A stretch of DNA of 64,000 nucleotides, from contig OZ024742.1 of assembly GCA_964016885.1 (NCBI GenBank), forward strand, positions 336,412,001 through 336,476,000, given 5' to 3'. Below, one piece after another: positions 1-27,808 of the stretch. Under the pieces are notes generated by a model. That model saw only the letters and a program-made list of their open reading frames with translations, had not been told where the DNA came from and made no database searches. Every line of letters begins with the position of its first letter. Positions within the stretch are counted from its first letter, which is position 1. Both the position numbers and the translations under genes were made by a program. Source of the stretch: Eledone cirrhosa. Lineage: Eukaryota.

Positions 1-1405
1 TCATTATCAGAACTGTGGTACCTTTTGTCAACCACTCTGGCACCTCACCCGACACCAAGCAGTCATTGAACATGGCCGTCAGCTTCGGGTGGAGGGATGT
101 TAAATGTTTAATCCAATACCCCTGCACACCATCTGGGCCTGGTGATTTCCAGTTGGTTAGTTTTTTGGCTTGCCCCTTAAGAGTTTCAACTGTGATACTC
201 AAATCAGTCTGTTGTTGTGCCTGCTCACCGATCTCCCTCTGTACTGTCTCAATCCACCCTGCCTGGGCATTGTGTCTAACATCCTGCTCCCATATTCCTC
301 TCCAGAATGTTTTAGCTTGTTCCGCCCCAGGGATCAAGTCGTTGCCTCTTTCTTTCCCCTCAAGCTGTCCAAACAGCATCTTCTGGTTGTTGTCGAACAT
401 GCGGTTCTGTTTATACTGACTGACTCTGTTCTCGTATCGCCTGATTTTGGCACTCTTTGCTACAATGCGTTGCTTCAATTCCTCTATGATAATATTTAGC
501 TTTTTACTCCTAGTTTTGTATTTTATTTCCAGTCTATTTTTAGTGCCTATGTTTTTTAGTGTCCCATTCAGTAGTGACTCAAGCTTTCCTATGTCATTTC
601 TCATTTCCCCGATTTGCCCACTCAGTCGCTTCTTCCACCACGGCTCTGCTCTTTCTTGTCTGTTGTTTCCTCTCGCTTTTATACCAAGTAGTTTCCTCAC
701 CGTATTTGCTGTTGCTTTGAGGATATTGTTGCACTGGTGAAGACTCCTCGCCTCAAGGTATGGGATGACTTTGTTTACCTTAGCTGTTGTTTCTTTTAAC
801 TTTTTCCTGTCTACAAATCTTAGGTTCATAGGTCTCCCACTATCATTGTTCAACTCATCTACCACTAAATTTAGGATGTCAACCGAATCTTGTCCTAGCC
901 CGTCAGCATTCATCTCCTCAGTGGCCGTATCTCTGTTCCAGGTATTATTTATCTCAGTATTCAGATCATTGTCTGCTTCGGGTGGTTCCTCCGTTCTCAG
1001 GACCTCCTCACCTTCATTTCCCGCCGGCTCGCTTGTCTGGCATACTACACCCGCCATCTCCAAGCCATTCTCTCTGCTCAGTTCCTCCAGTTCCAGCTCG
1101 CTTATCCACCCATTAGTTCTTATTACCCGAGCCTGCCCGGCCAATTTTTGTTCATCTAATTTAAATAAACCAATCTCGTTCCAGATGTTATGCATCCGTC
1201 TCCTGTAGCCCCTCTCCTTGTTGTTACTTTTCAGGTAGCATTGCATAACAGTTCTATTCAATTCTTTCGTCCAGTTGGTTCTGGCCCCTTTCCTTCTTCT
1301 TCTTCCTCCAACATCAGCAGTATTTGGTTGACAGTCAGGTTCCTGCTGCTGAGCCAGGGGGCACCTGTTGGGTGAGAGTCTGTCACATGACGTTCTAGTC
1401 TCCAT
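1..1405 (-). CDS. N-terminal part of the family A RT-RLE ORF (partial, continues beyond the window)
   Basis: The ATG at 1405 corresponds to the ATG at 10645, and the sequence is colinear with the intact ORF 7253-10645. Confidence 0.85.
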   Translation of the reverse strand, partial: METRTSCDRLSPNRCPLAQQQEPDCQPNTADVGGRRRRKGARTNWTKELNRTVMQCYLKSNNKERGYRRRMHNIWNEIGLFKLDEQKLAGQARVIRTNGWISELELEELSRENGLEMAGVVCQTSEPAGNEGEEVLRTEEPPEADNDLNTEINNTWNRDTATEEMNADGLGQDSVDILNLVVDELNNDSGRPMNLRFVDRKKLKETTAKVNKVIPYLEARSLHQCNNILKATANTVRKLLGIKARGNNRQERAEPWWKKRLSGQIGEMRNDIGKLESLLNGTLKNIGTKNRLEIKYKTRSKKLNIIIEELKQRIVAKSAKIRRYENRVSQYKQNRMFDNNQKMLFGQLEGKERGNDLIPGAEQAKTFWRGIWEQDVRHNAQAGWIETVQREIGEQAQQQTDLSITVETLKGQAKKLTNWKSPGPDGVQGYWIKHLTSLHPKLTAMFNDCLVSGEVPEWLTKGTTVLIM

Positions 1406-1688
1406 TTCACCGTTATTCGAACTGTTTATGTTCGATATTTAAACACTCTTATCGAGGATTGGCGAATGTATGTTTACATAGCCATCTGTGGATCCGCCAT
1501 CCCACTTGGCCCTTGTGTGGCATTATCACCACGCTGTATACGAACACACATAAACAAACAAACACACGGGCAGAAAGGGCCCCAAAAATGAATAAGCATA
1601 AGTTTCATTGTAATGTAGTATTCGAATGTCTGACTTAGTTTTTGTTTTTTAAGTTTTACTTTTTCCCCCCTCTTCTCTGTCCGTCCGC
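1..1688 (-). mobile_element. R4/Dong-like RLE retrotransposon, family A, copy A1. It runs off the left edge and is 5'-truncated within the leader.
   Basis: Almost identical to 9241-10928 (offset 9240, only a few substitutions). Ends abruptly in a (TTA)n tract at 1689. Confidence 0.93.
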
Positions 1689-1751
1689 TTGTTATTATTA
1701 TTATTATCATTATTATTGTTATTATTATTATTATTATTATTGTTGTTATTA
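1689..1751. repeat. Interrupted (TTA)n microsatellite between elements
   Basis: Read directly from the sequence. Confidence 0.95.
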
Positions 1752-2887
1752 CTCTTTGAGTCTCAGTCATTGATGTTAGTTAACTGGAAAGTTTGTTGGA
1801 ATGAATATCAAGCCATTACCTGCAGCCTCAGATATTCAGGACGTATCGGAGGGTTCTTGCTGTTCCCAGCAAGCATGCCTTTTGAAGCGTTCCAAAAAGC
1901 GTGGCGGGGCCAATTTTCTTTAACCATCCCTGGAAACTTTTTGAGATAGTCCCTAGTGCGCCTATGACAATCGGGATCACTTTGACTTCATGGCAGTTCC
2001 AAATCCTTTTTACCTCCAACTTTAAGTCCTGGTATAGGTTAATTTTCTCCCTCTCCTTCTCTTGCACTCTCGTGTCGAACGGGCAGGCCACATCCACAAT
2101 CAGGCACGATCTTTTTTCTTTGTCCACAACCACCAGGTCAGGTCTATTTTGTTCCAGTTTCTTGTCCATCTGTATCCTAAAATCCCACAGCACCTTCACC
2201 TGATCGTTTTCTATCACCGCCTCTGGCTTATGCTCATACCACTTCTCAGAATGTGGTAAATTGTTTACTTTGCATAAGTGCCAGTGGATCACCCTGCCCA
2301 TCACATCATGTCTCCAGCCCTTATAGTGAGTCTGGGCTAGGTGTTTACACTCGGATACAATGTGAGCCACAGTCTCCTCTCTCTCTCCACAGATCCTGCA
2401 CAGTGGGCTAGCCTCCTCCTTGTAAATATGGTGTTTCAACCACTTCGTTTTGAGGGCCTGCTCCTGCGCAGCCATTAACATTCCTTCTGTAGCCTTTTTA
2501 AGGTCTCCTCTTTTCAACCAGTTCCATGTCTGTGGATCTCTAAATTCAGTTTTCTCAAAGAAGGTACTATGAAGGGATTTTTCCTGAAGGCTGCTCTTTC
2601 TCCTTGATGCTATTTCCTCCTTGGACATCCCCTGGCCTATTGTCCCCTCCTTCAGTACAGTTCTGAGCATTGGCTCCTTACTATCAGTCACGTATTTGTG
2701 TAGGTTGTTTTTCTCCATCTGAACACAGTCCTCTATGCTGATAAGACCTCTTCCACCTTCAGATCTCCTTAAGTAGAGTCAGTCTATCGACATCACTCCT
2801 CTTGTGGAACATGTTGTAGATAGTCAATAGCTTCCTAGTCTTCCTATCAATTTCTTTTTGTTCAGCAACATTCCATCTCAGAATTCC
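1752..2887 (-). mobile_element. 5'-truncated diverged family A copy (A'), containing the CCHC zinc knuckle, RLE domain and 3' UTR
   Basis: ORF 1828-2718 has CRICGEREETVAHIVSEC, RHD and RPDLVVVD. A 4-bp AGTC duplication near 2777-2784 shifts the frame relative to A2. Flanked by (TTA)n on both sides. Confidence 0.92.
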
Positions 2888-2910
2888 ATTATTATTATTA
2901 TTATTATTAT

Positions 2911-5900
2911 TTGCATTTATCTTGCTTTATGTTTATACGAGTTATCACCAAGTCACAACCAGTGACCTCAAGAGACAACAAGGTCCGCCATGTTCAAGAA
3001 AGAACACACATATTCACACATGCATCCTTAGTGTTTAGACTTGTGATGTACTTATATTGACAGGATCTTCCTTAGTATATGAGCAGTTCCCATTAGTACT
3101 ATCTTTTGTATTTCTCCTATACGCGGGTTTCCTGGGATTTGCGATAAGTAGTCGTTAGACCCCTTAGGTATCATTCCCAGAGCGCCTACAACCACTGGTA
3201 TTGTTTTAGTTCTCAATTTCCACATTTTTCCAATTTCTATCTCCAGGTCCTTATACTTGCTCAATTTTTCAAATGTTTTTATAGATACATTCTTGTCTAT
3301 TGGAACAGACATATCAATTAGCAGGCATACCCTCCTTTGAAAGTCCTTCAATATTATATCAGGTCTATTTGCATCTATTTTTCGGTCTGTTTGGATGCTA
3401 AAGTTCCACAAGATTGAGATGTGATCTTTTTCAAGTATGGGAGGTGGTTGATGCTCCCACCAATTCTTTTGATGGGGCAGGTCAAAATGCTTGCACATTA
3501 TCCAATGTATGTATTGTGCAGCTCTGTCATGCCTGTTTAGGTATTCGGTTGGAGCTATAGGACTGCACATTGAAATTATATGGTCAATGGTCTCTGGTTG
3601 TTTTTTGCATACACGGCATAATGGGCTGCACCCATTTTTTATTATGTTGGCTTGGTAATTTTTTGTTGGCAGACACTGATCTTGTGCGGATATAATCAGT
3701 CCTTCAGTCTCCGATTTCAGTCCAGAGGATGCCAACCACTGATGGGTTAAAGTTTTGTCAACATCAGGATTGTTAGCTCGCTCTGGGTATTTTCCATACA
3801 GAGGCTTTTCTTGCCATTTCTTAGCCAGTTTCTGTAGCAGTTCTTTCTTTGCAGTTACTTTTACCTGCTTTGCTTTTTCTGTGTTTTCCATTTCAGCAGT
3901 AAATGGGACTTCTGAAATTTGTAGTCCATTACTGTATCTTTGTGCATCTTTTGTAATGGAATATGATCTTTTGGTGCTTTCGTGTTTCAAAACGAGTTTG
4001 ATCATCCAATCATGTGATTCCCTTAGATATGTGGATAATCCAATTGTTGCAGTTTTCAACGCAATGTCTAACTGGATTAACCCACGTCCTCCTTCTTTCC
4101 TAGGGAGATATATTCTATCTATGTCTGCCTTAGGGTGATGCATTCTGTGCATGGTTAAGAATTTTCGGATTTTTGTATCGAGCCTACGGATCTCTGTGCT
4201 TGACCAGTTGATGACATTGTAACTGTAGGTTACTACTGGTATGGCAAGCGTGTTTATGGCATCGATCCTATTCCTTGCATTCAATTCCGTTCTTAAGATT
4301 GCTCTGACTCTGCGGTAACATTCCTTCCTTATCCTTTCCCTCATTGTCGAGTGCTTGATTCCGTCTCCTTCACAAACACCTAGATATTTGTAAGTTTGTT
4401 CTTGATCAAGCTCTCTTATCACGTTCCCCCGATCAAGATTAATGTCTGAACTCTTCAGCAGCTTTCCTCTGGTGAACGTTGCTTTGGCGCATTTATCCAG
4501 TCCAAACTCCATTTTAATGTCATCACTGAACTGCTTCACAGTGGATAATAGCCCTTGCAATTGTTCATCATTTTTTGCAAATAGTTTCAGGTCATCCATG
4601 TAGAACAGGTGATTAATGGTTTTGTCATAGACTCTATATCCATGTTTTGTTTCATTGAGCATTTTACTTAATGGTATAAGTGCGATGCAGAATAAAAGCG
4701 GTGATAAAGAGTCACCCTGAAAAATTCCACAATTAATGTTAACTTCTCCAGCTTCCAGTGATTTTGTTTCACTATTCAAAAGGAGTGTCGTTCTCCATGT
4801 CCTCATACTGAATGACAAAAACCTCCTGATAACGGGGGATATTTTGAAAATCTCTAAACATTTTTCAATCCAACTGTGTGGCAAACTATCAAATGCTTTT
4901 TTATAATCTATCCAAGCAATCGATAGATTTTTGTGTCTATTATGACAATCTTCCAGTATCATTTTGTTAACCAGAAGCTGATCCTTACAGCCATATGAGC
5001 CTCGTTTACACCCTTTCTGCTCAATGGGAAATAGGTCATTTGTTATCAGGTGGTCATATGTGTATTCAGTTAGGACTGATGTTAACATTTTATACATTGT
5101 GGTCAAGCAGGTTATCGGTCTGTAATTTTTGGGATTGTTTGTCTCATCATTCTTCGGTAGCAGGAATGTAATGCCGTTAACTAGCCATGATGGTATCTTT
5201 TCTGGCTCCTTAACTATTTCATTGTAAAGTTGGGCTAACAGCTCATGAGACTCTGTGAAGGCATTTATCCAAAAGTTTTGTATTTTGTCTTTTCCTGGGG
5301 ATTTCCATTTGCTGGTTTTTCTTAGAGCCAAGCGCAGCTGTTCAACTGTTATATTTTCCCATGTTTGTTCTTCAAGGTGAGCTGTTTCTTTCATTTGTCT
5401 GTCTATCCATGGGGCATGTATGTTATGAACTTTTTCTTCGGCCCAGATCTTTTCCCAGAATTCTTGCACTTCCTCCTTGGGTGGTATTGATTTAGCAGTT
5501 ATTGTTGACTTACCAATTTTTCTGTAGAAGTTTCTTTGGTTGTTTTTGAACATATTATTGTCCTTATAGAATCTAGATCGTTTTTCAAAGCGCCTTATAC
5601 GAGCAGCTTTGGCCGACACTTTTTGCTTGATTGTTTCTATCAGCATGTCTATGTCACATGTTGATCTTATACTGTACTTTTTTTTCAATTTTCTAAGTTT
5701 AGTTTGTTTAACATGTTCACCTACTTTATAGTTTGTTAAAATTTCTATGTCAGATCGGAGAAGGTTTATTTGGCGATTGATGTTATCTTGCCAAGTAGAT
5801 TTCTTGTGGGAATTCCTTTGTTTTTTCATCTTCACTCCACATAAGTGAGTGGTGACTTTAGCCGATGCATAATAGAGATGATTTAAGTCAGTAATGCTTA

Positions 5901-6885
5901 GTTTGTTTGTGATGATAATGTTTTTGAGAATTATGTTAGTCTTGTGTATTATCTTTTGGTTCTGTTTGGAGTTCTGGATCTTAGGGAGGGTGTCTCGTTC
6001 CCCCATGTCAGATTCTTTCATTTTCATCCATTCGATCATAATTTCATCCTTCAAGTTGGCAAGTTCATTCTCATTCATTTCTTTATCATTTACGATCTCA
6101 TTATTTTCATTTGGAGTTTCATCCTGAGCATGCACTCCCTCCACTTTTTCGCTCCTTTCTTTAATTTGTTCTGTTGCCAGTGATTCCGCCCCAACTCTGG
6201 GATTCGAAGTGTTACAGTTTACCTCGTTTTCACTGACACATGCTTCATTTTCCCTTCGCTGACTTTGTGCTACTAGCTTGATCTGATCAATTTCTATATC
6301 AGTTAGTAACTTTTTTCTTACAATATTTCTTCGTATATTGGCTAGTTTGTTACTGTCAATATAGCCTCTGTTTTCGGAATGTTTCTTTTTCCAGTTGATA
6401 TATGTTTGCTCTGTATTCGATGTATTTGATGGGTAGTACATGGCAGTGTAGAAAGCCTCAAGGACTTCTTTATTATCTTCCCTTGACCATTTTTCTCTCT
6501 TTTTCTTTGGATTTCTTGGTGGTGAGCATGGAGGGCCAACAGTAGGAGTATTCCGGTTATGGGAGGTCTCCAGCTCCGAAGTGATGGGAAGGTTTGAACC
6601 ATTAGCTGATTTTTCGACCCCAGTCTGGTTCCTCTCTGAGGGACGCGGCCCTTTTTTACCCGGGTGACGGCCGATCCGGTATGAGATTTCATCATTAGAC
6701 ATCTACTTTATTTTGTCGCGTTTTATCCTTATCCGCCAAGGGGTAATCTTTTCGTGTTACCACTTCTAGAACGAGTGTCAACCAAGACTAGAGGGGTCGT
6801 TCTCCCCTAGAGACATGGCTATTCTCCGCCGGCCGCCATCCCGGTATTTCTTGGTCACGGGGTTTTCTTTTTGTTGTTTTTTTTT
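2911..6885 (-). mobile_element. R4/Dong-like retrotransposon, family B, copy B1 (apparently full length; 5' boundary approximate)
   Basis: Single intact ORF with a short 3' UTR abutting (TTA)n at 2888-2910 and a structured 5' UTR. Confidence 0.9.
3052..6702 (-). CDS. Family B polyprotein (1216 aa): N-terminal W-motif region, reverse transcriptase, CCHC knuckle and restriction-like endonuclease
   Basis: Motifs KWSREDN, KSPGKD, YRPITCL, WIDYKKAFDS, GIFQGDSLSP, YMDDLK, CRVCKKQPETIDHIISMC, RHD, RPDIIL and KYKDL. Confidence 0.95.
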   Translation of the reverse strand: MSNDEISYRIGRHPGKKGPRPSERNQTGVEKSANGSNLPITSELETSHNRNTPTVGPPCSPPRNPKKKREKWSREDNKEVLEAFYTAMYYPSNTSNTEQTYINWKKKHSENRGYIDSNKLANIRRNIVRKKLLTDIEIDQIKLVAQSQRRENEACVSENEVNCNTSNPRVGAESLATEQIKERSEKVEGVHAQDETPNENNEIVNDKEMNENELANLKDEIMIEWMKMKESDMGERDTLPKIQNSKQNQKIIHKTNIILKNIIITNKLSITDLNHLYYASAKVTTHLCGVKMKKQRNSHKKSTWQDNINRQINLLRSDIEILTNYKVGEHVKQTKLRKLKKKYSIRSTCDIDMLIETIKQKVSAKAARIRRFEKRSRFYKDNNMFKNNQRNFYRKIGKSTITAKSIPPKEEVQEFWEKIWAEEKVHNIHAPWIDRQMKETAHLEEQTWENITVEQLRLALRKTSKWKSPGKDKIQNFWINAFTESHELLAQLYNEIVKEPEKIPSWLVNGITFLLPKNDETNNPKNYRPITCLTTMYKMLTSVLTEYTYDHLITNDLFPIEQKGCKRGSYGCKDQLLVNKMILEDCHNRHKNLSIAWIDYKKAFDSLPHSWIEKCLEIFKISPVIRRFLSFSMRTWRTTLLLNSETKSLEAGEVNINCGIFQGDSLSPLLFCIALIPLSKMLNETKHGYRVYDKTINHLFYMDDLKLFAKNDEQLQGLLSTVKQFSDDIKMEFGLDKCAKATFTRGKLLKSSDINLDRGNVIRELDQEQTYKYLGVCEGDGIKHSTMRERIRKECYRRVRAILRTELNARNRIDAINTLAIPVVTYSYNVINWSSTEIRRLDTKIRKFLTMHRMHHPKADIDRIYLPRKEGGRGLIQLDIALKTATIGLSTYLRESHDWMIKLVLKHESTKRSYSITKDAQRYSNGLQISEVPFTAEMENTEKAKQVKVTAKKELLQKLAKKWQEKPLYGKYPERANNPDVDKTLTHQWLASSGLKSETEGLIISAQDQCLPTKNYQANIIKNGCSPLCRVCKKQPETIDHIISMCSPIAPTEYLNRHDRAAQYIHWIMCKHFDLPHQKNWWEHQPPPILEKDHISILWNFSIQTDRKIDANRPDIILKDFQRRVCLLIDMSVPIDKNVSIKTFEKLSKYKDLEIEIGKMWKLRTKTIPVVVGALGMIPKGSNDYLSQIPGNPRIGEIQKIVLMGTAHILRKILSI

Positions 6886-7177
6886 AAATTGTTATTATCA
6901 TGAGTGGTTCCTTAATGTGAGCATTGCGTGGCTTAAGAATGAAATAATTGTCTCCACTCCAGGCCAGCAATCACCCAGTGCATTACAATAATATAATATA
7001 CTTTTTGTTGTAGTTGGCTGTTATTGCTGCTGGCTATGTCGGTGGTGGTGCCGGGGCTTTTTATATTGTTGGTGAGGAAGGGGTGAGCCAGCAGTCCCAT
7101 AATTGTTGATGTAGACGTTTGTCCGTGGCAAGGTCACCAAGTCAATCTATTATTATTATTATTATTGTCATTGTTAT

Positions 7178-10100: not shown

Positions 10101-11644
10101 ACCACTAAATTTAGGATGTCAACCGAATCTTGTCCTAGCCCGTCAGCATTCATCTCCTCAGTGGCCGTATCTCTGTTCCAGGTATTATTTATCTCAGTAT
10201 TCAGATCATTGTCTGCTTCGGGTGGTTCCTCCGTTCTCAGGACCTCCTCACCTTCATTTCCCGCCGGCTCGCTTGTCTGGCATACTACACCCGCCATCTC
10301 CAAGCCATTCTCTCTGCTCAGTTCCTCCAGTTCCAGCTCGCTTATCCACCCATTAGTTCTTATTACCCGAGCCTGCCCGGCCAATTTTTGTTCATCTAAT
10401 TTAAATAAACCAATCTCGTTCCAGATGTTATGCATCTGTCTCCTGTAGCCCCTCTCCTTGGGGTTACTTTTCAGGTAGCATTGCATAACAGTTCTATTCA
10501 ATTCTTTCGTCCAGTTGGTTCTGGCCCCTTTCCTTCTTCTTCTTCCTCCAACATCAGCAGTATTTGGTTGACAGTCAGGTTCCTGCTGCTGAGCCAGGGG
10601 GCACCTGTTGGGTGAGAGTCTGTCACATGACGTTCTAGTCTCCATTTCACCGTTATTCGAACTGTTTATGTTCGATATTTAAACACTCTTATCGAGGATT
10701 GGCGAATGTATGTTTACATAGCCATCTGTGGATCCGCCATCCCACTTGGCCCTTGTGTGGCATTATCACCACGCTGTATACGAACACACATAAACAAACA
10801 AACACACGGGCAGAAAGGGCCCCAAAAATGAATAAGCATAAGTTTCATTGTAATGTAGTATTCGAATGTCTGACTTAGTTTTTGTTTTTTAAGTTTTACT
10901 TTTTCCCCCCTCTTCTCTGTCCGTCCGCCTGCTTCTCTCTTCATTCTTATTTTCTTTACGTTTTTGGGGTTTCTTTTTTTGTTTTTGTTTTTCTCTGTTT
11001 GTTTTTCTCGTTTTTTGCTGTTGTTGCTGTGCTGCTTTGGTTTTGTTGTTTGTTTTTCCTTTTTTTCTTTTGAGTCTATCTATATATTTTGATGCCTTCC
11101 TCTTTGTTAGTAGTAGGAATTCTATAATGTGGAAGTGGCAGCCAGCAGAGACTGGCGGCGTTGGCGATACTGAGACAGTGGTGGTGGTGATGTCGATACC
11201 GAGGCAGTGGTGGCGGTGATGCGACCGTATTACTGTAGTGATGGTGCTGTAGCGGTGGCAGCAACAGTGAAGGAGTCAAGGGGTGGTGGCGGCGGTGATG
11301 GGATAGTGGTGGTAATGATGGCCGTAGTGAGCGGTGGCGGTGAAGGTGAAAATGCTGTTGTGTTTAGTGTACACAGATGATGGGGTGGGTGGTGTATCTA
11401 GTTTCTGGTGTTGGTGAGTTTAGCTGTCCTATATAGTGTAGCCAGAGGAGAGGAGGGGGGGGGTTCTTCTTCTTCCATTTATAGCCATTTTTTTTTTGGA
11501 TATACAGTGTACAATACAAAGTTGAATATTTGAATATTTGAGCCTTATAACAATATATTTTGGGTCCGAATTTTTTGGGGCTCAAGCCGGGTGCTTTACG
11601 TAGCATTTGTACTAAGAGTTGTTATTTCACAAATGATTTAAATA

Positions 11645-11646: not shown

Positions 11647-11709
<63 letters not shown>
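11647..11709. repeat. Pure (TTA)n tract
   Basis: Read directly from the sequence. Confidence 0.97.
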
Positions 11710-11710
<1 letters not shown>

Positions 11711-11712
11711 AG

Positions 11713-12287
11713 TTGCATTTATCTTGCTTTATGTTCATACGAGTTATCACCAAGTCACAACCAGTGACCTCAAGAGACAACAAGGTCCGCCATGTTCAAG
11801 AAAGAACATACATATTCACACATGCATCTTTAGTGTTTAGACTTGTGATGTACTTATATTGACAGAATCTTCCTTAGTATATGGGCAGTTCCCATTAGTA
11901 CTATCTTTTGTATTTCTCCTATACGCGGGTTTCCTGGGATTTGCGATAAGTAATCATTAGACCCCTTAGTTCCCATTAGTACTATCTTTTGTATTTCTCC
12001 TATACGCGGGTTTCCTGGGATTTGCGATAAGTAATCATTAGACCCCAGAGCGCCTACAACCACTGGTAGTGTTTTAGTTCTCAATTTCCACATTTTTCCA
12101 ATTTCTATCTCCAGGTCCTTATACTTGCTCAATTTTTCAAATGTTTTTATAGATACATTCTTGTCTATAGGAACAGACATATCAATTAGCAGGCATACCC
12201 TCTTTTGAAAGTCTTTCAATATTATATCAGGTCTGTTTGCATCTATTTTTCGGTCTGTTTGGATGCTAAAGTTCCACAAGATTGAGA

Positions 12288-12288
<1 letters not shown>
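11713..12288 (-). mobile_element. 5'-truncated family B copy (B2) with an internal ~80-bp duplication and a 15-bp deletion
   Basis: Matches 2911-3420. ORF 11854-12279 repeats GSNDYLSQIPGNPRIGEIQKIVLMGT. Confidence 0.93.
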
Positions 12289-12354
<66 letters not shown>

Positions 12355-12359
12355 GTTAT
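12289..12359. repeat. (TTA)n tract
   Basis: Read directly from the sequence. Confidence 0.97.
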
Positions 12360-15300
12360 TCCTTGAATCTCAGTCATTGATGTTGGTTAACTGGAAAGTC
12401 CGTTGGAATGAATATCAAGCCACTACCTGCAGCCTCAGATATTCAGGACGTATCGCAGGGTTCTTGCTGTTCCAAGCAAGCATGCCTTTTGAAGCGTTCC
12501 AAAAAGCGTGAAGGGGCCGATTTTCTTTAACCATCCCTGGAAACTTTTGAAGATAGTCCCCAGTGCGCCTATGACAATCGGGATCACTTTGACTTCATGG
12601 CAGTTCCAAATCCTTTTCACCTCCCACTTTAGGTCCTGGTATCGGTTAATTTTCTCCCTCTCCTTCTCTTGCACTCTCGTGTCGAAAGGGCAGGCCACAT
12701 CCACAATCAGAGACGATCTTTTTTCTTTGTCCACAACCACCAGGTCAGGTCTATTGTGTTCCAGTTTTTTGTCCGTCTGTATCCTAAAATCCCACAGCAC
12801 CTTCACCTGATTGTTCTCCATCACCGCCTCTGGCCTATGCTCATACCATTTCTCAGAATGTGGTAAATTGTTTACTTTGCACAGGTGCCAGTGGATCACC
12901 CTTCCCATCACATCGTGTCTCCAGCCCTTATAGTGGGTATGGGCTAGGTGTTTACACTCGGACACAATGTGAGCCACAGTCTCCTCTCTCTCTCCACAGA
13001 TCCTGCACAGTGGGCTAGCCTCCTCCTTGTAAATATGGTGCTTCAACCACTTCGTTTTGAGGGCCTGCTCCTGCGCAGCCATTAGCATTCCCTCTGTAGC
13101 CTTTTTGAGGTCTCCTCTTCTCAACCAGTTCCATGTCTGTGGATCTCTAAATTCAGTTTTCTCAAAGAAGGTACTATGAAGGGATTTTCCCTTAAGGCTG
13201 CTCTTCCTCCTTGATGTTATTTCCTCCTTGGATATCCCCTGGCCTACTGTCCCCTCCTTCAGTACAGCTCTGAGCATTGGCTCCTTACTATAGGTCACGT
13301 ATTTGTATAGGTTGTTTTTCTCCATCTGAACACAGTCCTCTATGCTGATAAGACCTCTTCCACCCTCAGATCTCCTTAGGTAGAGTCTATCGACATCACT
13401 CCTCTTGTGGAACATGTTGTAGATAGTCAATAGCTTCCTAGTCTTCCTATCCATTTCTTTTTGTTCAGCAACATTCCATCTCAGAATTCCCGCACTGTAC
13501 CTAATAATAGACACAGCTCGGGAATTTACTGCGCTTATGGCATTTCTGCTGTTCAGATGTGACTTCAATACGCTCCTTACTCTCCGAATGTATTCAGTTC
13601 TTAACAATTCCTTCATTTTTTTGTTCTTTATGCCATCAACCTCCAGAACGCCCAAATACTTGTATCCTTCCTCAGAGTCAATTTCCTTTATCATCTCACC
13701 TGTTGGTATCTGGATCCCGTTACTTCTGCTCAACCTACCCCTCCTCATCACAATGACTCCACATTTACTAATACCAAACTGCATACATATATCACTTCTG
13801 AAAATACGGACAGTGTCAACAAGCACATCCAACTCCTTCTCACTTTTCCCGAAGAGCTTAAGATCGTCCATGAAGAGGAGGTGATTGATGGTAAGCTCTC
13901 CCTTTCCCAACTTGTATCCTGCTCTCACTTTTCGCAGCATAATGGTCAAGGGCATCAGGGCAAGGACAAACAACAGAGGGGACAGGCTATCTCCCTGGAA
14001 GATACCTCTCTTGATCTTCACGCTTCCCAACGATACTCCAGTTGATGTCAACTCTGTCTCCCAGGACCCCATACTCCTGCCCAGCAACTGTCTGATGTTA
14101 TCTGCCACCCTGAAGATCTCCAGGCTTTTGGTGATCCAAGAATGAGGCACCATGTCAAATGCCTTTCTGTAGTCTATCCATCCCATGGCAAGATCAGTGT
14201 GTCTCCTCCTGCAATTCCCCATTACCATCTTATCAATAAGTAACTGGTCCTTTGTACCACGTGACTTCTTTCGGCATCCTTTCTGTTCGTCCGGTAACAA
14301 GTTGTTTGTGTGGAGGTGATGGTAGATTTCCTCAGACACAATGCTCGTCAACAGTATCCACATTACGGACAGACATGTGATAGGTCTATAGTTGGCAACA
14401 TCATTACCCTTGATTCGGTCTTTCATTATCAGAACTGTGGTACCTTTTGTCAACCACTCTGGCACCTCACCCGACACCAAGCAGTCATTGAACATGGCCG
14501 TCAGCTTCGGGTGGAGGGATGTTAAATTTTTAATCCAATACCCCTGCACACCATCTGGGCCTGGTGATTTCCAGTTGGTTAGTTTTTTGGCCTGCCCCTT
14601 AAGAGTTTCAACTGTGATACTCAAATCAGTTTGTTGGTGTGCCTGCTCACCGATCTCCCTCTGTACTGTCTCAATCCACCCTGCCTGGACATTATGTCTA
14701 ACATCCTGCTCCCCTATTCCTCTCCAGAATGTTTTAGTTTGCTCCGCCCCAGGGATCAAGTCGTTGCCTCTTTCTTTCCCCTCAAGCTGTCCAAACAGCA
14801 TCTTCTGGTTGTTGTCGAACATGCGGTTCTGTTTATACTGACTGACTCTGTTCTCGTATCGCCTGATTTTTGCACTCTTTGCTACAATGCGTTGCTTCAG
14901 TTCCTCTATGATAATATTTAGCTTTTTCCTCCTAGTTTTGTACTTTATTTCCAGTCTATTTTTAGTGCCTATGTTTTTTAGTGTCCCATTCAGTAGTGAC
15001 TCAAGCTTTCCTATGTCATTTCTCATTTCCCCGATTTGACCACTCAGTCGTTTCTTCCACCACGGCTCTGCTCTTTCTTGTCTGTTGTTTCCTCTCGCTT
15101 TTATACCAAGTAGTTTCCTCACCGTATTTGCTGTTGCTTTGAGGATATTGTTGCACTGGTGAAGGCTCCTCGCCTCAAGGTATGGGATGACTTTGTTTAC
15201 CTTAGCTGTTGTTTCTTTTAACTTTTTCCTGTCTACAAATATTAGGTTTATAGGTCTCCCACTATCATTGTTCAATTCATCTACCACTAAATTTAGGATG

Positions 15301-16037
15301 TCAACCGAATCTTGTCCTAGCCCGTCAGCATTCATCTCCTCAGTGGCCGTATCTCTGTTCCAGGTATTATTTATCTCAGTATTCAGATCATTGTCTGCTT
15401 CGGGTGGTTCCTCCGTTCTCGGGACCTCTTCACCTTCATTTCCCACTGGCTCGCTTGTCTGGCATACTACACCCGCCATCTCCAAGCCATTCTCTCTGCT
15501 CAGTTCCTCCAGTTCCAGCTCGCTTATCCACCCATTAGTTCTTATTACCCGAGCCTGCCCGGCCAATTTTTGTTCATCTAATTTAAATAGACCAATCTCG
15601 TTCCAGATGTTATGCATCCGTCTCCTGTAGCCCCTCTCCTTGGGGTTACTTTTCAGGTAACATTGCATAACAGTTCTATTCAATTCTTTCGTCCAGTTGG
15701 TTCTGGCCCCTTTCCTTCTTCTTCTTCCTCCAACATCAGCAGTATTTGGTTGACAGTCAGGTTCCTGCTGCTGAGCCAGGGGGCACCTGTTGGGTGAGAG
15801 TCTGTCACATGACGTTCTAGTCTCCATTTCACCGTTATTCGAACTGTTTATGTTCGATATTTAAACACTCTTATCGAGGATTGGCGAATGTATGTTTACA
15901 TAGCCATCTGTGGATTCGCCGTTCCACTTGGCCCTTGTGTGGCATTATCACCACGCTGTATACGAACACACATAAACAAACAAACACACAGGCAGAAAGG
16001 GCCCCAAAAATGAATAAGCATAAGTTTCATTGTAATG
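12360..16037 (-). mobile_element. Family A copy A3, 5'-truncated within the leader
   Basis: Highly similar to A2 and ends in (TTA)n at 16038-16068. Confidence 0.93.
12435..15827 (-). CDS. Family A polyprotein (1130 aa), intact frame
   Basis: Same motifs as 7253-10645, with scattered substitutions such as FWRGIW>FWRGIG and CLPV>CLSV. Confidence 0.95.
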   Translation of the reverse strand: METRTSCDRLSPNRCPLAQQQEPDCQPNTADVGGRRRRKGARTNWTKELNRTVMQCYLKSNPKERGYRRRMHNIWNEIGLFKLDEQKLAGQARVIRTNGWISELELEELSRENGLEMAGVVCQTSEPVGNEGEEVPRTEEPPEADNDLNTEINNTWNRDTATEEMNADGLGQDSVDILNLVVDELNNDSGRPINLIFVDRKKLKETTAKVNKVIPYLEARSLHQCNNILKATANTVRKLLGIKARGNNRQERAEPWWKKRLSGQIGEMRNDIGKLESLLNGTLKNIGTKNRLEIKYKTRRKKLNIIIEELKQRIVAKSAKIRRYENRVSQYKQNRMFDNNQKMLFGQLEGKERGNDLIPGAEQTKTFWRGIGEQDVRHNVQAGWIETVQREIGEQAHQQTDLSITVETLKGQAKKLTNWKSPGPDGVQGYWIKNLTSLHPKLTAMFNDCLVSGEVPEWLTKGTTVLIMKDRIKGNDVANYRPITCLSVMWILLTSIVSEEIYHHLHTNNLLPDEQKGCRKKSRGTKDQLLIDKMVMGNCRRRHTDLAMGWIDYRKAFDMVPHSWITKSLEIFRVADNIRQLLGRSMGSWETELTSTGVSLGSVKIKRGIFQGDSLSPLLFVLALMPLTIMLRKVRAGYKLGKGELTINHLLFMDDLKLFGKSEKELDVLVDTVRIFRSDICMQFGISKCGVIVMRRGRLSRSNGIQIPTGEMIKEIDSEEGYKYLGVLEVDGIKNKKMKELLRTEYIRRVRSVLKSHLNSRNAISAVNSRAVSIIRYSAGILRWNVAEQKEMDRKTRKLLTIYNMFHKRSDVDRLYLRRSEGGRGLISIEDCVQMEKNNLYKYVTYSKEPMLRAVLKEGTVGQGISKEEITSRRKSSLKGKSLHSTFFEKTEFRDPQTWNWLRRGDLKKATEGMLMAAQEQALKTKWLKHHIYKEEASPLCRICGEREETVAHIVSECKHLAHTHYKGWRHDVMGRVIHWHLCKVNNLPHSEKWYEHRPEAVMENNQVKVLWDFRIQTDKKLEHNRPDLVVVDKEKRSSLIVDVACPFDTRVQEKEREKINRYQDLKWEVKRIWNCHEVKVIPIVIGALGTIFKSFQGWLKKIGPFTLFGTLQKACLLGTARTLRYVLNI

Positions 16038-16276
16038 TTATATTATTATTATTATTATTATTATTATTGGCGACCTACGTAGTAAATCGTATCATCGTGA
16101 GCTCCGCAAAGGTTTGTTATTTCCGTTTGTTAAAAATTGCCATTTATGGAAAATTTTATTGTTAACTGTTTATAAGCACACATACATTGTTTTCCGAAAA
16201 GGACACCCAAAAAGATTGGGGCCTTGTGCCCAAAATTTTAACTTTTATTATTATCCAAAAATTTCTTGGAAAAAAA

Positions 16277-18270
16277 ATGGCTAATTCCCCTCTGCACGAA
16301 GCAGCTGAAAGCCTTCCTCACAAAATAACACCTCACACCAACACCACCATTGTAAATGTTACTACTTTTGCCAACACAAAAAAAAAATATAAGCAGTAGC
16401 AATATTTTAAATTTGTCTCAGGCAGACATTCATTTCCCGCCATTACCAATGACTGCAGGTGTTAAAGCCTCCACCACCACCACCACCGCGACAACCACCA
16501 CCCCCACCACCACCGCGACAACAGAAACAAAAGAAGAAAAAAATAAATTAACTCGTGATGTCGAAATGAAATCAAGCAAAATGGACTCTTCCGCATCAAA
16601 GACGACTGACGTCACCACCACCACAACTGAAACTAAAATTAATATTAACACAAATAAAGATAGCAACAACAACAATGACATTATAAAACCGACCCTCAGT
16701 TTCGCCATAGTAGCAAAACAATTCGAAGCATTCACGGTAACTCAAGAGGATTTAGAAAATGCCAAACAAATGGTAAAGAAAGATGGGTACAGGGTCAGCC
16801 ACCCCCCCCCCCACCTAATAAAATGGAGCATCGGCGCCTATGCACCGTGTCGTATAGAACAATAAATGTAAAATCGCGCCGAGTGGAACGGGCATCCGAG
16901 TCCCAAATCCAAAAAGCTTTGGGACATGTGTGGGCAAGAAAAACCCACATCAGACGTGGGCAAAAGTATGGAACCGTGGATGTGTTCTTTGAAACACCAG
17001 AGGAGGCTAGAGAACACTCCATGGCCCCATTAAAAAGTGACGACTTCACACTCGTCCCAAGCTATTGTGGCCAGAGACTCGTAAAGATCAGGGTGACCCA
17101 AGTTCCACCGGCCATCGAAATTCCCTGGCTAATAGCGGCTGTCCTCGCCGGCATCGAAGCCAACACGAAAATAATAGCAATAGCAAAAGAAAAGCAGGAA
17201 AACTGGTCCGGATCTGGGATGGAACTCCTAATCCAAGCGGACCAAAAAAGCATTGAGGAGATCCCAGAGGTAATAGACCTCACTGACGGCAGCCACCTCA
17301 CGGTAATTGTCGAGGGCAGAAGACCTAGGTGTGTTGTTTGTGGTGAAGGAACCCACCTAAGGGCTTTCTGCCCTCAGGCTAAAAGGTTGAGGCCACCTCT
17401 CCTACCCACCCCAGTGACACAACCATCAACACCACCAGTAGCAGAGATGGCAGCAACAACTGTAGCAGCAACAACAGAAGCAACTATAACAGCAACAACC
17501 CCAGCAACAGTAGCAAAACCAACACCACTACCACCACCAGCAAAACCAACACCACCACCACCCAACGCTTCAGAACTAGCACCAGCGCATACTCCATCCA
17601 CCACACCACAACCAAAACTAACGGCTGTGGAGGATTTTCCACTCCCCGGCCTATCACAACTGGAGACAGATTGTGACGACGAGGAGTGGGAAACGATATC
17701 CGGAAAAAAAAAAGAAACCAAAAAAGAAAAAATTCTCTTCCTTCCCCCTCCAAAAACAAAATACAGAGGGAAACAAATAAACTAAGAAACAAAAAAGTTA
17801 GGACAGATATGCCACCATCCACACCAGCATCACCAACCCCATCAACCCAAACACCAACACCATCACCATCATTAACTCCAACACCACCATCACCTACACC
17901 AAAAAAATCACCAAAATGCGAAACAGAAACAAACCCACAACAAACGCAAACAAGACAAAACAACCAAAACGATACACACTACACAGCATTAAATTTGAAC
18001 AACAAGCAATTATTACACTACATCCAACACAACACCAGCATCACAGAAAAAGACTACACAACAACCCCAAAATTCACACCACCTCCACACATACAAATCA
18101 CTCGCATCACACAGAAAACGTACATGACACTAAAACAAAAATTCCCCAAAGACATCGGAGACTTCCGACAAGCACTCTCCAGGAGGATTTATAAGGACAT
18201 CCTTCCTGAGGAGGCCACAAGCAGTGAAAAGGATGGAAAAACCGTCCTTCCCCTACGAGAAGTAAGGTAA
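16277..18270 (+). pseudogene. Tx1 ORF1 (gag-like, Thr/Pro-rich, CX2CX4HX4C knuckle), split by three homopolymer frameshifts
   Basis: Consecutive ORFs 16187-16399, 16356-16865, 16823-17785 and 17686-18270 switch frame at the A run 16378-16387, the C run 16802-16812 and the A run 17704-17713. Knuckle reads CVVCGEGTHLRAFC. Confidence 0.75.
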
Positions 18271-18304
18271 GTGGTCTTTCCCATCTTTTCCACTCCTTTT
18301 CAAC

Positions 18305-20997
18305 ATGACCTCACTCAGAATAGGCAGCATAAATGCGCATTGCTTGGGGTCGTCATGGAAGCAGGGCCACCTGCTCAACGACCTCAGGTCACTAAACATA
18401 GATGTAGTGGCCATCAGCGAGACCAGAATCTCCGAAGCACAGGCTTTGGCACCGATCTTCGGCGGCTACGATGTGTACGCATCTCCCAGCCGTCCGGGAT
18501 CGGGGGGAGGAGTTGCTGTGCTTTTTCAGAGAGGTTTGGATCTTGCCATACGGGCCATCTTCCTGGACCCAGAAGGTAAGTTGGTGGTGCTGGACGTGAC
18601 CAGCGGAGACGGCCAAGCTTTCAGGTTAGTGGCCGTCTATGCCCCGACAGGAGCAGGGCGGCCTGATTTCTTCCGGCGTCTGGAGACCTTTCTTGGAACG
18701 TCCCGCTCTTTAGTGTTAGTGGGCGACTGGAACGGGATCTTAGATGCACGCTGGGATTGTGTGGGATTAGTGGATAGGGAAGGAGGGTGCAAGAGTCTCA
18801 CCAACCTGCTCAGACGTTTTGAACTGTCTGACAGGTACCGAATGGATTTCCCGAATGTACCAATGTGGACTTGGACAAATCGCATAGGGTCATCCAAGTC
18901 ATATCTAGATAGAGTATTTTGTAGGGAAATAGATAGGTCTAGCATAGGCTGTCCACAATTCAAGATAGTCAGCTACACGGACCACAAATTCGTGATCTGT
19001 GTGCTTGACTTAGATAGGCTTCATAGGCGAGGACCCGGCTACTGGAAGCTAAACGCGTCCTTACCAGCGCGCAAGGCCTACAGAGACCGGATTAGCGAAC
19101 TAGTTAAGCGGGCGTTGACGGAGGCCATCGTCAACAACAAGTGGTGGTTTGCTCTGAAAAGAGCAATTAGAATAGAGTCCATTAGGTTTAGTAAGACTTT
19201 AGCAATAGAGAAAAATAGAGCAAAGGGAGAACTAGTTAGAAAATTAGATGAGGCGCTTAGCAAAGGCATCGCGACCGACGTACTTGCGGCGAAATTGGCC
19301 CCTGACCAATTCTTCAATGCAAAGCACGAAGGCTGCGTTGTCAGAGCTAGGGTGCGTGCTCTCAGACACGAGGGGACGAAAGCCGTTCAATGGGCCCGAG
19401 TGGCGGAGGCGCGTCGTGGCAACAAAGCCACGATCCGGTCTTTGGTGGACCACGACGGGCGCATGCTACTCGATCCCGGGCAAATGTGTGAAGCTTTTCA
19501 GCGACACTTCGCTCAACTGTTCGGGGGCAGTGGCGGGCCGGATCGAGGGATGGACTTTAGTGTCTACCTCGACGGAATGCCGCGGCTTTCGGCCAGTGAG
19601 GCGGAGTGTTGCGAAAAGCCGATAACAACCGCTGAAGTACGGGATGCAATGACTAGTTGCACAAGGGGTAAATCGCCTGGTTTGGATGGTCTGCCCTATG
19701 AACTTTACGTACAAATGCCAAACTTGTTCGGAGGCCTCTTGGCGGACGTCTACTGCAACTGGCAACAGAACGGGAGAATTCCCAGCTCTGTGAGCCGAGG
19801 AGCGGTGGCGCTGCTGAGAAAGGATCCGAACAAGGGGGATAACATAGATAATTTTAGGCCCATAACTCTGCTAAACACAGAGTTCAAGATTTTGGCCAAG
19901 GTGCTAGCAAAGAGGTTGGCGCTTGACGTTGGTGGTCTGGTGGGAGAGGCACAGACATGCGCCATTCCCGACAGATCCATCCACGACAACCTCCACCTCA
20001 TGCGATACAGCGTAGAGAGGGTAGCTAGGGAACCTGGCAGGGGTGGGTCTTTGATCAATTTAGATCAATCGAAAGCCTTCGATAGGGTCGACCATCGTTA
20101 CCTAGCGGCAGTCCTGAGGGCGGCTGGCTTTGGGCCCGTCTTCAGAGGCTGGATCGCTGCCATGCACAGCGACATCTGCTCTGTAGTGAGAGTGAACGGT
20201 CACCTTTCGGAACCGTTCAACATCATGCGCTCGGTCCGCCAAGGATGTCCCCTCTCGTCCCTATTGTACGTATTGACTCTCGAGCCATTACTGCACAAAC
20301 TGGAGACGTTGAGGGGGGTCCCGCCCTCGACCAATCGGGAAATGTGATCGGTGGAAACTACACCTTGGCGTTCTATAGAGGATTAGTGGAGGATAAGAGC
20401 GACGACGTACTTGGGGAAACTCTAGGCGTCGACGAAAATCAACTAGCCAATCTCTTCGGAAGAACTTTCGAGCCAGGGCCTATGGACAACTTCCAGAAAT
20501 CCCTGGCCTGGCAGTGCTACCGAGGAACTTTGCCAGTTCGGGATAAACTCTACAGGCATGGAGGTGCCGTCAGCCGGGCATGTCCGAGATGCGCGCAGGG
20601 CGACGAAACCGTCCTGCACGCAGTCTTCCAGTGTCCGAGCATTGCTGACTTGTGGGTTTATGTCGAACACCTGCTGTAGCGTGTAGGACGGATCCGGCTA
20701 TCAGCTAAGTCCATCGTGAGGATTGCCCCGCCCTCTTCCTTTAGCCGGGAAGGGCAGGCAATTTTTATCTGTCTAGTGGCCATGGCGAAAGAGATAGTAT
20801 GGTGGACACGTTTGAAAGGGCTGAAGACGAGCACTTACCTCTTCGGTGATGCCCTGATTAACTTTTTCAAATTTCATTTGAAAAGGAAAATCAGGGTAGA
20901 GAGGGAAGTGCTCTCTTCCCAGCATTTTGTTGAAAGATGGGTGAGAGAGGCAAGAATGGCCCGAGTAAATGGGCCTACTCTGAGTATGTGTCTGTAA
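18305..20997 (+). pseudogene. Tx1 ORF2 (APE, RT, zinc finger) with an internal deletion removing YADD and a nonsense codon
   Basis: APE motifs ISETR, VYAP, GDWN, LDRVF and TDH. RT motifs KSPGLDG, FRPITLL, LDQSKAFD and QGCPLS. At about 20320 it jumps to the C-terminal region (CPRCAQGDETVLHAVFQC). TAG at 20677. Confidence 0.88.
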
Positions 20998-21290
20998 ATT
21001 AAAGCTGGAAAACTGGGAGAGGGCACTTGCCCTGGTGGTTAGGGTCACTGTGGCCTTTTAATGGGCTTTCTCCACAAATGTCCCTCGGAAGTCTCCCCCC
21101 TATTGGGGAATCTTTCTTTGTTATTTTATTACATCCTCTGTTTTTTTACACGCAGAAATGCCCATTTGTACCGTCCTGTATTGTCCTGTACTGTCCTTAA
21201 TGTCTACTTTATGTAAACCCTTGTGGTTAATAAAGAAAACGTTATTATTATTATTATTATTATTGTTATTATTATTATTATTAATGAAAG

Positions 21291-21478
21291 GGTAGTGGAT
21301 TGTCAGTATCGGTAGAAGGTCGGACGCCATACTTTGCAGTATATAGTTACGGCCTTTTACGTTTTGAGTTCAAATCCTTTCGAGGTTAACTTTGCCTTTC
21401 ATCCTTACGGGGTCGATAAAATAAAGTACCAGTAATATACTCAGATCATTCCTGGCCTTGTGCCAAAAGTAAAAACAA
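21291..21478 (+). mobile_element. tRNA-headed SINE with a Meta-domain-like core
   Basis: B-box-like GAGTTCAAATCC, core TTTGCCTTTCATCCTTACGGGGTCGATAAAATAAAGTACCAG and tail GGCCTTGTGCC..AAAC-ATT. The flank ATTAATGAAAG recurs at 21280-21290 and 21689-21699. Confidence 0.85.
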
Positions 21479-21489
21479 TTATCATTAAT

Positions 21490-21676
21490 TGTTTCTACTT
21501 TAGGCACAAGGCCAGCAATTACCCAGTGCATTACTGGTACTTTATTTTATCGACCCCGTAAGGATGAAAGGCAAAGTCAACCTCGGCGGGATTTGAACTC
21601 AGATCGTAAAGGGACGTAACTATGCTGGAAAGCATGGCGTCCGACCCTCTACCGATACTGCCAATCCACCGCCCTT
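21490..21676 (-). mobile_element. Same SINE family, inserted in reverse into the tail of the previous copy
   Basis: 18-bp TSD AAAACAATTATCATTAAT at 21472-21489 and 21677-21694. Confidence 0.88.
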
Positions 21677-22739
21677 AAAACAATTATCATTAATGAAAGA
21701 ACAAAGATGTGAACTTCTAAACTCAGCTTGATTGAACGATATCATATTTATTATTGTATCTCACAGACTTGTTGCGAGTAAACTCACGAACATTTCATTC
21801 ACGCAGTCCCAACCTTCTTCGGCCAAATGGTTAACTCCTTCTTTGTGTAAGGTCAAATGTTTGACCAGCTGCACACAAAACCTTAACCTCTAACTCCTTA
21901 ACCCTAATTCTAAACTACACAAATATGGCTTCCAGACAATTAAACAGAAACTTCCCTGTCTGCCAACATAATCTCTACAATTGAACATTGACATTGTCCT
22001 CATGTTTTTGTTTCTTTTTTGTAAAACTACTTGGTTCTGTTTGTTGTTTTCCCCCGGATGTCTGGAGAAATTCTATATTCATTTGACTTTCAAAGATTTT
22101 CTTTGATATTGTGGTTGTTGTTGTTGTTGTTGTTGATTTTATCGCTGTTTGTTAGAGTTGTGGCAATTGTTTGTTGATGTTGTTGCTGCTGTTGTTACTG
22201 TTGTTGTTACTCTTGTTTATTGATATTATTGTTGTTGATATTGATTTTTTTTTTTATGTATATTGATGTCGTTTGTTGATGTTCTTACTGTTGCTGTTGT
22301 TGATGTCATTTTTTTCTGTTGTTTGTTGATAGTGTTAGTGTTGTTGTTGATGTTATTGTAGAGCCACAGGCCTTCGCTGATCGACTAGACCTTTTTCAGA
22401 CATTTTAACAGGGTTTTAAAATACATCAAAGCATCCATTGTGTCGCAAATATCTTCCTGAATACTGTCATCAGGATGTTTGTGTCAGCTTGTGGCTGTTG
22501 TCTGTCAGCTGTTGGCGCACTCTCCAGACCTGGTCTAGCTGGAAAATAAAATATTTTTCTGAAAACATAACGGTGTTTTTAACATATATTTCACCAAAAT
22601 AATTGATCTTTTTATAACTCTTTCTAACTCCCTCTTTCTCGCCCACTTTCTCTCTTTCTCACTCCTTTTCATTCTCTTTTTCTTTCTGTGTGTATATATA
22701 TATACATACATATCTAAATACATGTATGCATACATATCT

Positions 22740-27700: not shown

Positions 27701-27808
27701 ATTGCTAAGGCATATAAACAGGCGTTGATTTGCCAAAATGTTGGGGTTTTTATCCGTCGTAAATATTCATCCCCTATTTCGTCAATAACACGTAATATTT
27801 CTTTATTT
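24703..27808 (-). mobile_element. R4/Dong-like RT-RLE element, family C, copy C1: decayed, 5'-truncated and flanked by (TATG)n
   Basis: Fragments KTPGRD, YRPIAC, GIFQGDSLS, FFVDDLK, CRLCRTNIEDITHVISSC, RHD and a C-terminus KTFQKFCI with stop at 24928-24930. Contains several stops and frameshifts. Confidence 0.88.

What the first reader, a model, noticed from the sequence alone, without database searches (positions are those of the whole stretch)
1..21700. More than 21 kb multi-family retrotransposon array grown inside one (TAA)n microsatellite
Seen: the order A1-A'-B1-A2-B2-A3 (all minus strand, head to tail), then Tx1 and two SINEs. Essentially every junction is a TTA-repeat tract, the 5' truncation points differ between copies, three ORFs are intact, and A1 and A2 are nearly identical. 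Known: Dong-type R4-clade elements target TAA repeats. Inference: each insertion regenerates its target, so the locus is a self-perpetuating landing pad used recently by at least four families. It could serve as a safe-harbour source locus or as a transposon trap similar to a unistrand piRNA cluster.
Basis: partly seen in the sequence, partly recalled or inferred. Interest (0 to 1): 0.75.

Follow-up and report, generated by a model that had tools for sequence, protein, structure and literature searches.

The report
Stacked jumping genes in TAA repeats
Seven jumping-gene copies of two unrelated kinds sit end to end, facing opposite ways and joined by short TAA repeats, likely because each insertion leaves a fresh repeat for the next; such stacks are the normal state of these elements across this animal genome, so this spot is not special.

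Summary
The array is real and slightly larger than reported: six Dong/R4-type LINEs of two families (minus strand) plus one Tx1 LINE (plus strand), 23.3 kb from 2.1 kb left of the window to 21,241, with a TTA tract at 8 of 8 LINE junctions. Four ORFs are intact, but no copy is complete. TAA targeting holds genome-wide (69 of 75 young 5' junctions against 49 of 7,730 background positions). The landing-pad reading is supported: cluster sizes fit a geometric law, and array mates are not each other's closest relatives. The locus is not special: 37 of 40 sampled copies sit in arrays, and 4 of 4 other clusters checked hold 8-11 LINEs. A source-locus role found no support, and a piRNA-trap role could not be tested. 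Dong on (TAA)n, tandems by repeated insertion and opposite-strand sharing (SART/TRAS) are known; I did not find an (ATT)n-targeting Tx1 sharing the tract with Dong in ten paper searches. This scan has reported the same pattern many times on other DNA of this genome. No available reads spanned the array.

The parts
1..1688 (-). A1: Dong/R4-type LINE, family A; 3,763 bp in all, continuing 2,074 bp left of the window to a (TTA)6 tract that is the tail of an older SINE; ORF intact (1,130 aa), most of the leader missing
1689..1751 (.). Interrupted TTA tract (tail of A')
1746..2887 (-). A': 5'-truncated copy of an older A subfamily (about 5% from A1-A3)
2888..2911 (.). (TTA)8 tract (tail of B1)
2912..7147 (-). 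B1: Dong/R4-type LINE, family B; intact 1,216-aa ORF (3052-6702), 36% identical to the A protein; lacks about 665 nt of leader; 0.11% from its closest sampled copy
7148..7165 (.). (TTA)6 tract (tail of A2); the B1|A2 junction is unique in the genome
7166..11646 (-). A2: nearly full-length family A copy, intact ORF (7253-10648); 10929-11646 is its 5' UTR; lacks about 62 nt at the 5' end
11647..11709 (.). (TTA)21 tract (tail of B2)
11710..12287 (-). B2: short 3' fragment of family B with an internal 81-bp tandem duplication
12288..12353 (.). (TAT)22 tract (tail of A3)
12354..16038 (-). A3: family A copy, intact ORF (12435-15830), 1.6% from A1 and A2, most of the leader missing
16041..16067 (.). 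(TAT)9 tract between the 5' ends of A3 and Tx1 (head to head)
16068..21241 (+). Tx1-type LINE (ORF1; APE endonuclease, RT, zf-RVT); complete 5' and 3' ends, about 0.7 kb missing inside the RT region near 20323
21242..21283 (.). Interrupted TTA tract (tail of Tx1 and right edge of the microsatellite)
21284..21486 (+). SINE1, older copy, flanked by a roughly 16-bp duplication
21486..21694 (-). SINE2, inserted in the tail of SINE1 with an 18-bp duplication

Best explanation
Six Dong/R4-type LINEs and one Tx1 LINE lie in fixed opposite orientation, joined by TAA/TTA tracts, and they likely arrived one at a time by target-primed reverse transcription into that microsatellite, each insertion likely leaving repeat on both sides and so adding a landing site. 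Shown: the anatomy, the genome-wide flank preference, the polarity, the different truncation points and the cluster-size law. Inferred: the two endonucleases (restriction-like in Dong, APE in Tx1) nick opposite strands of the tract; long tracts are the effective targets; the seed here was the TTA tail of a SINE that sits in the tail of an old RTE-like LINE. The array is a by-product of shared target choice, one of roughly 10,000 occupied tracts in this genome (model estimate), with no locus-specific function required.
For: 5' flanks: TAA at 29 of 30 full-length A starts, TTA at 29 of 30 Tx1 starts, 69 of 75 young A/B 5' junctions versus 49 of 7,730 background positions; the sets of 30 include the window's own copy. 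3' tails: TAA at 30 of 30 A and 30 of 30 B. Exact 3' markers genome-wide: A 8,801, B 4,666, Tx1 10,645. In the first 43 Mb of C1, 180 of 218 markers lie within 10 kb of another (nulls 21 and 40); 117 of 126 adjacent pairs and 62 of 68 Dong-Tx1 pairs have the expected polarity; cluster sizes fit geometric better than zero-truncated Poisson (log-likelihood -150.5 versus -163.4). Array mates are the nearest relative for only 3 of 29 A and 1 of 20 B copies. Implied total targets of about 45,000 are of the order of tracts of 8 or more units.
Against: No empty site or insertion polymorphism was observed (could not span the array). Target-site duplications cannot be read inside a pure repeat. A geometric law also arises from fixed hotspots of unequal strength, and at a 7-kb cut-off the two fits differ little (-150.2 versus -152.9). 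6 of 75 young 5' junctions lack TAA; 3 of 30 Tx1 3' ends in sampled arrays and 1 Dong copy break the polarity rule. Marker density is uneven (5 per Mb in the tested stretch, 8 per Mb genome-wide), so regional effects add to clustering. In the 3'-most 1.1 kb, A2 is the nearest copy to both A1 and A3, which leaves some local exchange open.
Confidence: 0.85

Rival explanations
1. Fixed hotspots or selection: insertions pile up where chromatin is permissive or where they are tolerated, and target regeneration adds little.
For: Marker density varies along the genome; unequal hotspot strengths can also give a geometric-like law; published TE hotspots exist in O. vulgaris (PMC13282606, passages).
Against: Clustering far exceeds a null that keeps 1-Mb local density (180 versus 40 of 218); elements abut at base-pair scale through TAA tracts with fixed polarity, which tolerance alone does not produce.
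Confidence: 0.08
2. The array grew by local tandem duplication, unequal crossing-over or local copying, or is an assembly misjoin of near-identical copies.
For: A1 and A2 are 99.5% identical; no read or contig available spans the array; in the 3' 1.1 kb A2 is the nearest copy to A1 and A3.
Against: All six 5' ends and all junctions differ; 19 differences are spread along A1/A2; over 3.5 kb both have closer copies on other loci; within-array divergence is not lower than between arrays in 3 of 4 comparisons; no N in the window; the same architecture recurs at 37 of 40 loci.
Confidence: 0.04
3. This locus is a functional source locus or a piRNA-type trap kept by the host or the elements.
For: Four intact ORFs in 18 kb; six copies on one strand; piRNAs are reported in molluscs (PMC6128900, search listing only).
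Against: No copy has both a whole leader and a whole ORF; the B1|A2 junction that a read-through copy of A2 would carry occurs once; thousands of like arrays exist; none of the 4 runs holding the right flank is on record as RNA (a DNA-directed search, so weak).
Confidence: 0.03

Closest known systems
Dong (Bombyx mori), DongAg, DongBg and ostracod Dong, R4 clade; 'Dong-R4' of octopus annotations
   Same: Single ORF with RT, CCHC knuckle and PD..D..K endonuclease; (TAA)n target (PMC3812793, PMC7998251, passages). Dong-R4 is the most numerous recently active LINE group in O. vulgaris, 1,129 insertions in 5 families (PMC13282606, Table 1).
   Different: A long leader (about 1 kb or more) shared by two families only 36% identical in protein; no HDV-like ribozyme found, unlike B. 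mori Dong (PMC3774820, passages); copies stack in mixed arrays at thousands of loci.
Microsatellite-targeting Tx1 families: Kibi (TC)n, Koshi (TTC)n, crocodilian (TTCC)n/(TTTC)n (PMC4494074, passages)
   Same: Two-ORF APE LINE with both ends in one microsatellite.
   Different: The target here is (ATT)n, shared with an RLE element; not found in my paper searches.
SART1 and TRAS1 in silkworm (TTAGG)n (PMC7265360, passages)
   Same: Two families insert in one simple repeat in opposite directions; at least three repeat units are needed (SART1).
   Different: Both carry APE-type endonucleases and sit in telomeric repeats; here an RLE and an APE element share dispersed microsatellites that their own tails extend.
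Tandem TEs by double insertion in Drosophila, including R1 and telomeric elements (PMC5932611, passages)
   Same: Tail-to-truncated-head junctions holding the target sequence, read as independent insertions at one site.
   Different: Mostly same-family dimers; here multi-family, two-clade arrays of up to 11 LINEs seen are the usual state.

Membership tests
R4/Dong clade (RLE non-LTR retrotransposon) | Single ORF with RT and C-terminal CCHC plus PD..D..K restriction-like endonuclease, no APE | tested here: met
   Pfam RVT_1, no Exo_endo_phos; C942/C945/H954/C959 and P1028/D1029/D1044/K1060 conserved in 99-100% of 72 aligned sequences; best structural matches are R2 proteins
R4/Dong clade (RLE non-LTR retrotransposon) | N-terminal Myb/SANT-like domain without zinc fingers (PMC7998251) | tested here: inconclusive
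   Helical bundle predicted at residues 48-118 with conserved W76, L89 and I96, no Cys/His finger pattern; no profile comparison with Myb was run
R4/Dong clade (RLE non-LTR retrotransposon) | (TAA)n on both sides of the copy | tested here: met
R4/Dong clade (RLE non-LTR retrotransposon) | RT phylogeny groups with named Dong/R4 | not tested
   The homologue search returned 180 proteins, none of the 120 listed named Dong or R4; no named reference was fetched and no tree was built
R4/Dong clade (RLE non-LTR retrotransposon) | HDV-like ribozyme at the 5' end, as in B. mori Dong | tested here: not met
   My descriptor gave 0 folds for A and only weak G-U-rich ones for B; no Rfam match. A home-made descriptor can miss variants
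Tx1 clade | ORF1 plus ORF2 with APE endonuclease, RT and zf-RVT | tested here: met
   placement in Tx1 rather than another L1-group clade rests on architecture and recall, no tree
Tx1 clade | Target specificity for a repeated sequence | tested here: met
   TTA upstream of 29 of 30 full-length starts; by eye three or more ATT units after 29 of 30 3' ends. 5'-truncated Tx1 copies were not scored
Unistrand piRNA cluster | One long transcript antisense to the resident elements, processed to piRNAs | not testable with these tools
   No small-RNA or RNA run was laid; the elements are not all on one strand
Unistrand piRNA cluster | A rare, exceptional locus enriched for elements | tested here: not met
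   37 of 40 sampled loci are arrays; 4 of 4 clusters checked hold 8-11 LINEs

The most novel reading that the evidence does not exclude
The roughly 10,000 polar arrays form a dispersed system in which unrelated LINEs build each other's targets and trade parts: recombination or template switching between neighbours would swap 5' leaders (an A-type leader on a B body occurs at 5 loci; the A/B leader weakly resembles a Tx1 5' UTR), and read-through at tail-to-tail Dong/Tx1 junctions would supply mutual antisense RNA for silencing.
Probability: 0.25. Interest if true: 0.7.

Novelty: new variant of a known kind. Interest (0 to 1): 0.42.

Why it matters
The locus itself is ordinary for this genome. 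The pattern matters: a large share of young LINEs here is funnelled into self-extending microsatellite stacks, which may help explain how a 3-Gb genome tolerates thousands of recent insertions, and it confounds repeat annotation and TAA markers. An RLE and an APE enzyme apparently reading the same three-base repeat from opposite strands, beside a sister family on (ACAT)n, is a ready natural test of how retrotransposon endonucleases choose targets.

Tried and rejected
Empty-site test: contigs of a related organism (X1) match the right flank at 21685-22100 and stop at the TTA edge, but the 114 letters before that were not shown; the left flank proved to be an old repeat, so nothing could be joined. 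Inconclusive; X2-X4 are one sample and may be the assembly's source. RAD-seq runs did not cover the right flank. HDV-like ribozyme at A/B 5' ends: not found; hammerhead and twister layouts were considered by eye and did not fit. Segment 10929-11646 as a separate element: rejected. Automatic splitting at TAA tracts over-counted elements with internal TAA and was replaced by counting 3' ends. blastn found no A/B-Tx1 leader match with the window's Tx1; a shuffle test with other Tx1 subfamilies gave z up to 7 for one subfamily and about 0-1 for another. ARAGORN found no tRNA. The original Dong paper was not available; Kojima and Fujiwara 2004 and Repbase were not seen, so short earlier mentions of Dong tandems or ATT-targeting Tx1 cannot be excluded. 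No supplements were read. Host genes around the array were not annotated, so 'safe harbour' in the sense of distance from genes is untested.
Full report
Setting. The window is G000:C3:336,412,001-336,476,000 of a 3.0-Gb assembly. It has no N and is rich in microsatellites and SINEs. It is probably an octopus; that is an inference, not a tool result.

Anatomy. Self-comparison, ORFs and the left neighbour give, left to right: the 3' end of an old RTE-like LINE (read by eye from a six-frame translation); a SINE (plus, 2.3-2.1 kb left of the window) ending in (TTA)6; A1, A', B1, A2, B2, A3 (all minus); a Tx1-type LINE (plus, 16068-21241); a TTA tract; SINE1 (plus) and SINE2 (minus), each with a duplication-like repeat. 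The LINE part spans 23.3 kb. All 8 LINE junctions are TTA tracts of 6-22 units. The stretch 10929-11646 is A's own 5' UTR: it is joined to the A body in 30 of 30 loci, many with tandem copies of a 327-bp unit. A1, A2, A3 (1,130 aa) and B1 (1,216 aa) have intact ORFs. A2 lacks about 62 nt at its 5' end, A1, A3 and B1 lack more of the leader, and the Tx1 lacks about 0.7 kb of RT. No copy is complete.

What the elements are. A and B carry RT only by Pfam and are 36% identical. The CCHC knuckle and PD..D..K motif are near-invariant in 72 aligned sequences. The predicted fold (pLDDT 88) matches R2 proteins best. With (TAA)n flanks this fits R4/Dong as described in PMC7998251 and PMC3812793 (passages read); no tree with named members was built. 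The plus-strand LINE has APE, RT and zf-RVT and is filed as Tx1-type on architecture.

Targeting. TAA lies upstream of 29 of 30 full-length A starts. TTA lies upstream of 29 of 30 Tx1 starts, and TAA tails follow 30 of 30 A and 30 of 30 B ends; each set includes the window's copy. In 40 regions of 20 kb around other young copies (20 of the 29 other A loci and 20 of the 29 other B loci), 69 of 75 young 5' junctions have three or more TAA units against 49 of 7,730 background positions.

Is this locus special? No. Of those 40 loci, 37 are arrays of two or more LINEs, 32 are multi-family and 16 hold five or more within the 20-kb frame, with 22 cut off by the frame; this sample is biased towards large arrays. 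An unselected view comes from exact 3' markers: 8,801 A, 4,666 B and 10,645 Tx1 genome-wide. In the first 43 Mb of C1, 180 of 218 markers lie within 10 kb of another (uniform null 21, 1-Mb-local null 40), and 117 of 126 adjacent pairs, including 62 of 68 Dong-Tx1 pairs, show the polarity seen here. Four of the nine clusters with five or more markers were fetched; 4 of 4 are contiguous TAA-joined arrays of 8-11 LINEs over about 24-34 kb. A simple model gives about 10,000-13,000 occupied tracts and 115-380 with seven or more marked elements. This array is in the upper tail, not unique.

How it likely grows. Target-primed reverse transcription in the middle of a tract leaves repeat on both sides, so each insertion adds a target. 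That predicts geometric array sizes, which fit better than a zero-truncated Poisson at 10 and 12 kb cut-offs (13-16 log units) and only slightly at 7 kb; unequal hotspots could mimic this. The implied target pool, about 45,000, is near the number of tracts of eight or more units (12,172 and 24,535 for single boundary phases; 6 in 200 kb of 20 arbitrarily placed regions) and well below that of four or more units (17 in 200 kb), so long tracts are likely the real targets. Of 84 long tracts listed in those 43 Mb, 37 lie within 300 nt of a marker (this phase favours one B tail type). Fixed opposite polarity is what nicking of opposite strands would give; this is inferred. Copies arrive from the genome-wide pool: an array mate is the nearest relative for 3 of 29 A and 1 of 20 B copies, and A1 and A2 (0.55% apart) each have a closer copy elsewhere over 3.5 kb, although A2 is nearest to A1 and A3 in the last 1.1 kb.

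Function claims. Source locus: unsupported; the junction that read-through from A2 would copy is found once. piRNA trap: untested; no RNA data were laid. Assembly error: unlikely but not excluded by reads; contigs confirm both flanks without spanning.

Side results. A and B share about 330 nt of leader at 73%. One B-bodied copy has a leader 98.7% like an A-bodied one, and that junction occurs at 5 loci on 4 contigs. The leader weakly resembles one Tx1 subfamily's 5' UTR (z up to 7; tested after the lead). SINEs joined to LINEs by a tract face the Tx1 way in 14 of 16 cases, and their last 28 or so bases resemble the Tx1 end by eye. A third Dong-like family nearby ends in (ACAT)n in 22 of 25 copies.

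Comparison with what is known. Dong on (TAA)n, microsatellite-specific Tx1 (PMC4494074), opposite-strand sharing by SART1/TRAS1 (PMC7265360) and tandems by double insertion (PMC5932611) are published (passages read in each). Dong-R4 and L1-Tx1 are listed as recently active in O. vulgaris, and the passages found for 'tandem', 'nested' and 'microsatellite' do not describe such arrays (PMC13282606, first third and passages; PMC8967140, passages). PMC3774820 and PMC4640811 were read as passages. Ten searches found no report of an (ATT)n Tx1 sharing tracts with Dong; the library lacks most subscription papers and Repbase. This scan has noted the same arrays, the shared leader and the ACAT family many times elsewhere in this genome; those notes are not independent evidence.

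Verdict. Observation confirmed; landing-pad mechanism likely (0.85); special-locus function unsupported. New variant of a known kind; interest 0.42.

Noticed in passing
window 24667-27800 (minus) and 41601-42569 (plus): A third, older Dong-like family (about 30-35% protein identity to A and B) flanked by (ACAT)n instead of (TAA)n; 22 of 25 sampled copies end in three or more ACAT units.
   Followed up: partly
window 42570-44158: An RTE-like fragment (minus) lies between the ACAT tail of that third family and a (TACA)65 tract, a possible second shared-microsatellite system.
   Followed up: no
L257-L258, G000:C1:2,796,108-2,800,304: A B-bodied element with an A-type leader; the junction recurs at 5 loci on 4 contigs, so the chimera likely moved after forming.
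   Followed up: partly
window 11024-11350 and loci L067-L096: The A 5' UTR has a 327-bp unit present in one to three tandem copies among young elements, recalling monomer-type LINE promoters.
   Followed up: no
window about 6920-6970: The B 5' UTR holds about 49 bp similar to the SINE 3' end, in B's sense direction, in many copies.
   Followed up: no
window 21486-21560 versus 21210-21255: The SINE 3' end resembles the Tx1 3' end over about 28 nt, and tract-joined SINEs share Tx1 polarity in 14 of 16 cases; Tx1 may mobilise this SINE.
   Followed up: partly
L033-L034, 35.3-29.4 kb left of the window: A solitary full-span Tx1 copy 98% like the array's, with TTA on both sides; several Tx1 subfamilies with unlike 5' UTR/ORF1 share the 3' end.
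   Followed up: partly
window 58756-59116: A perfect 126-bp inverted repeat with a 109-bp spacer; possibly a young non-autonomous DNA element.
   Followed up: no
L278-L281, G000:C28 near 61.40 Mb: Four copies of the ACAT family with the same 3' flank at 2.2-2.7 kb spacing, a true tandem duplication unlike the insertion-built arrays.
   Followed up: no
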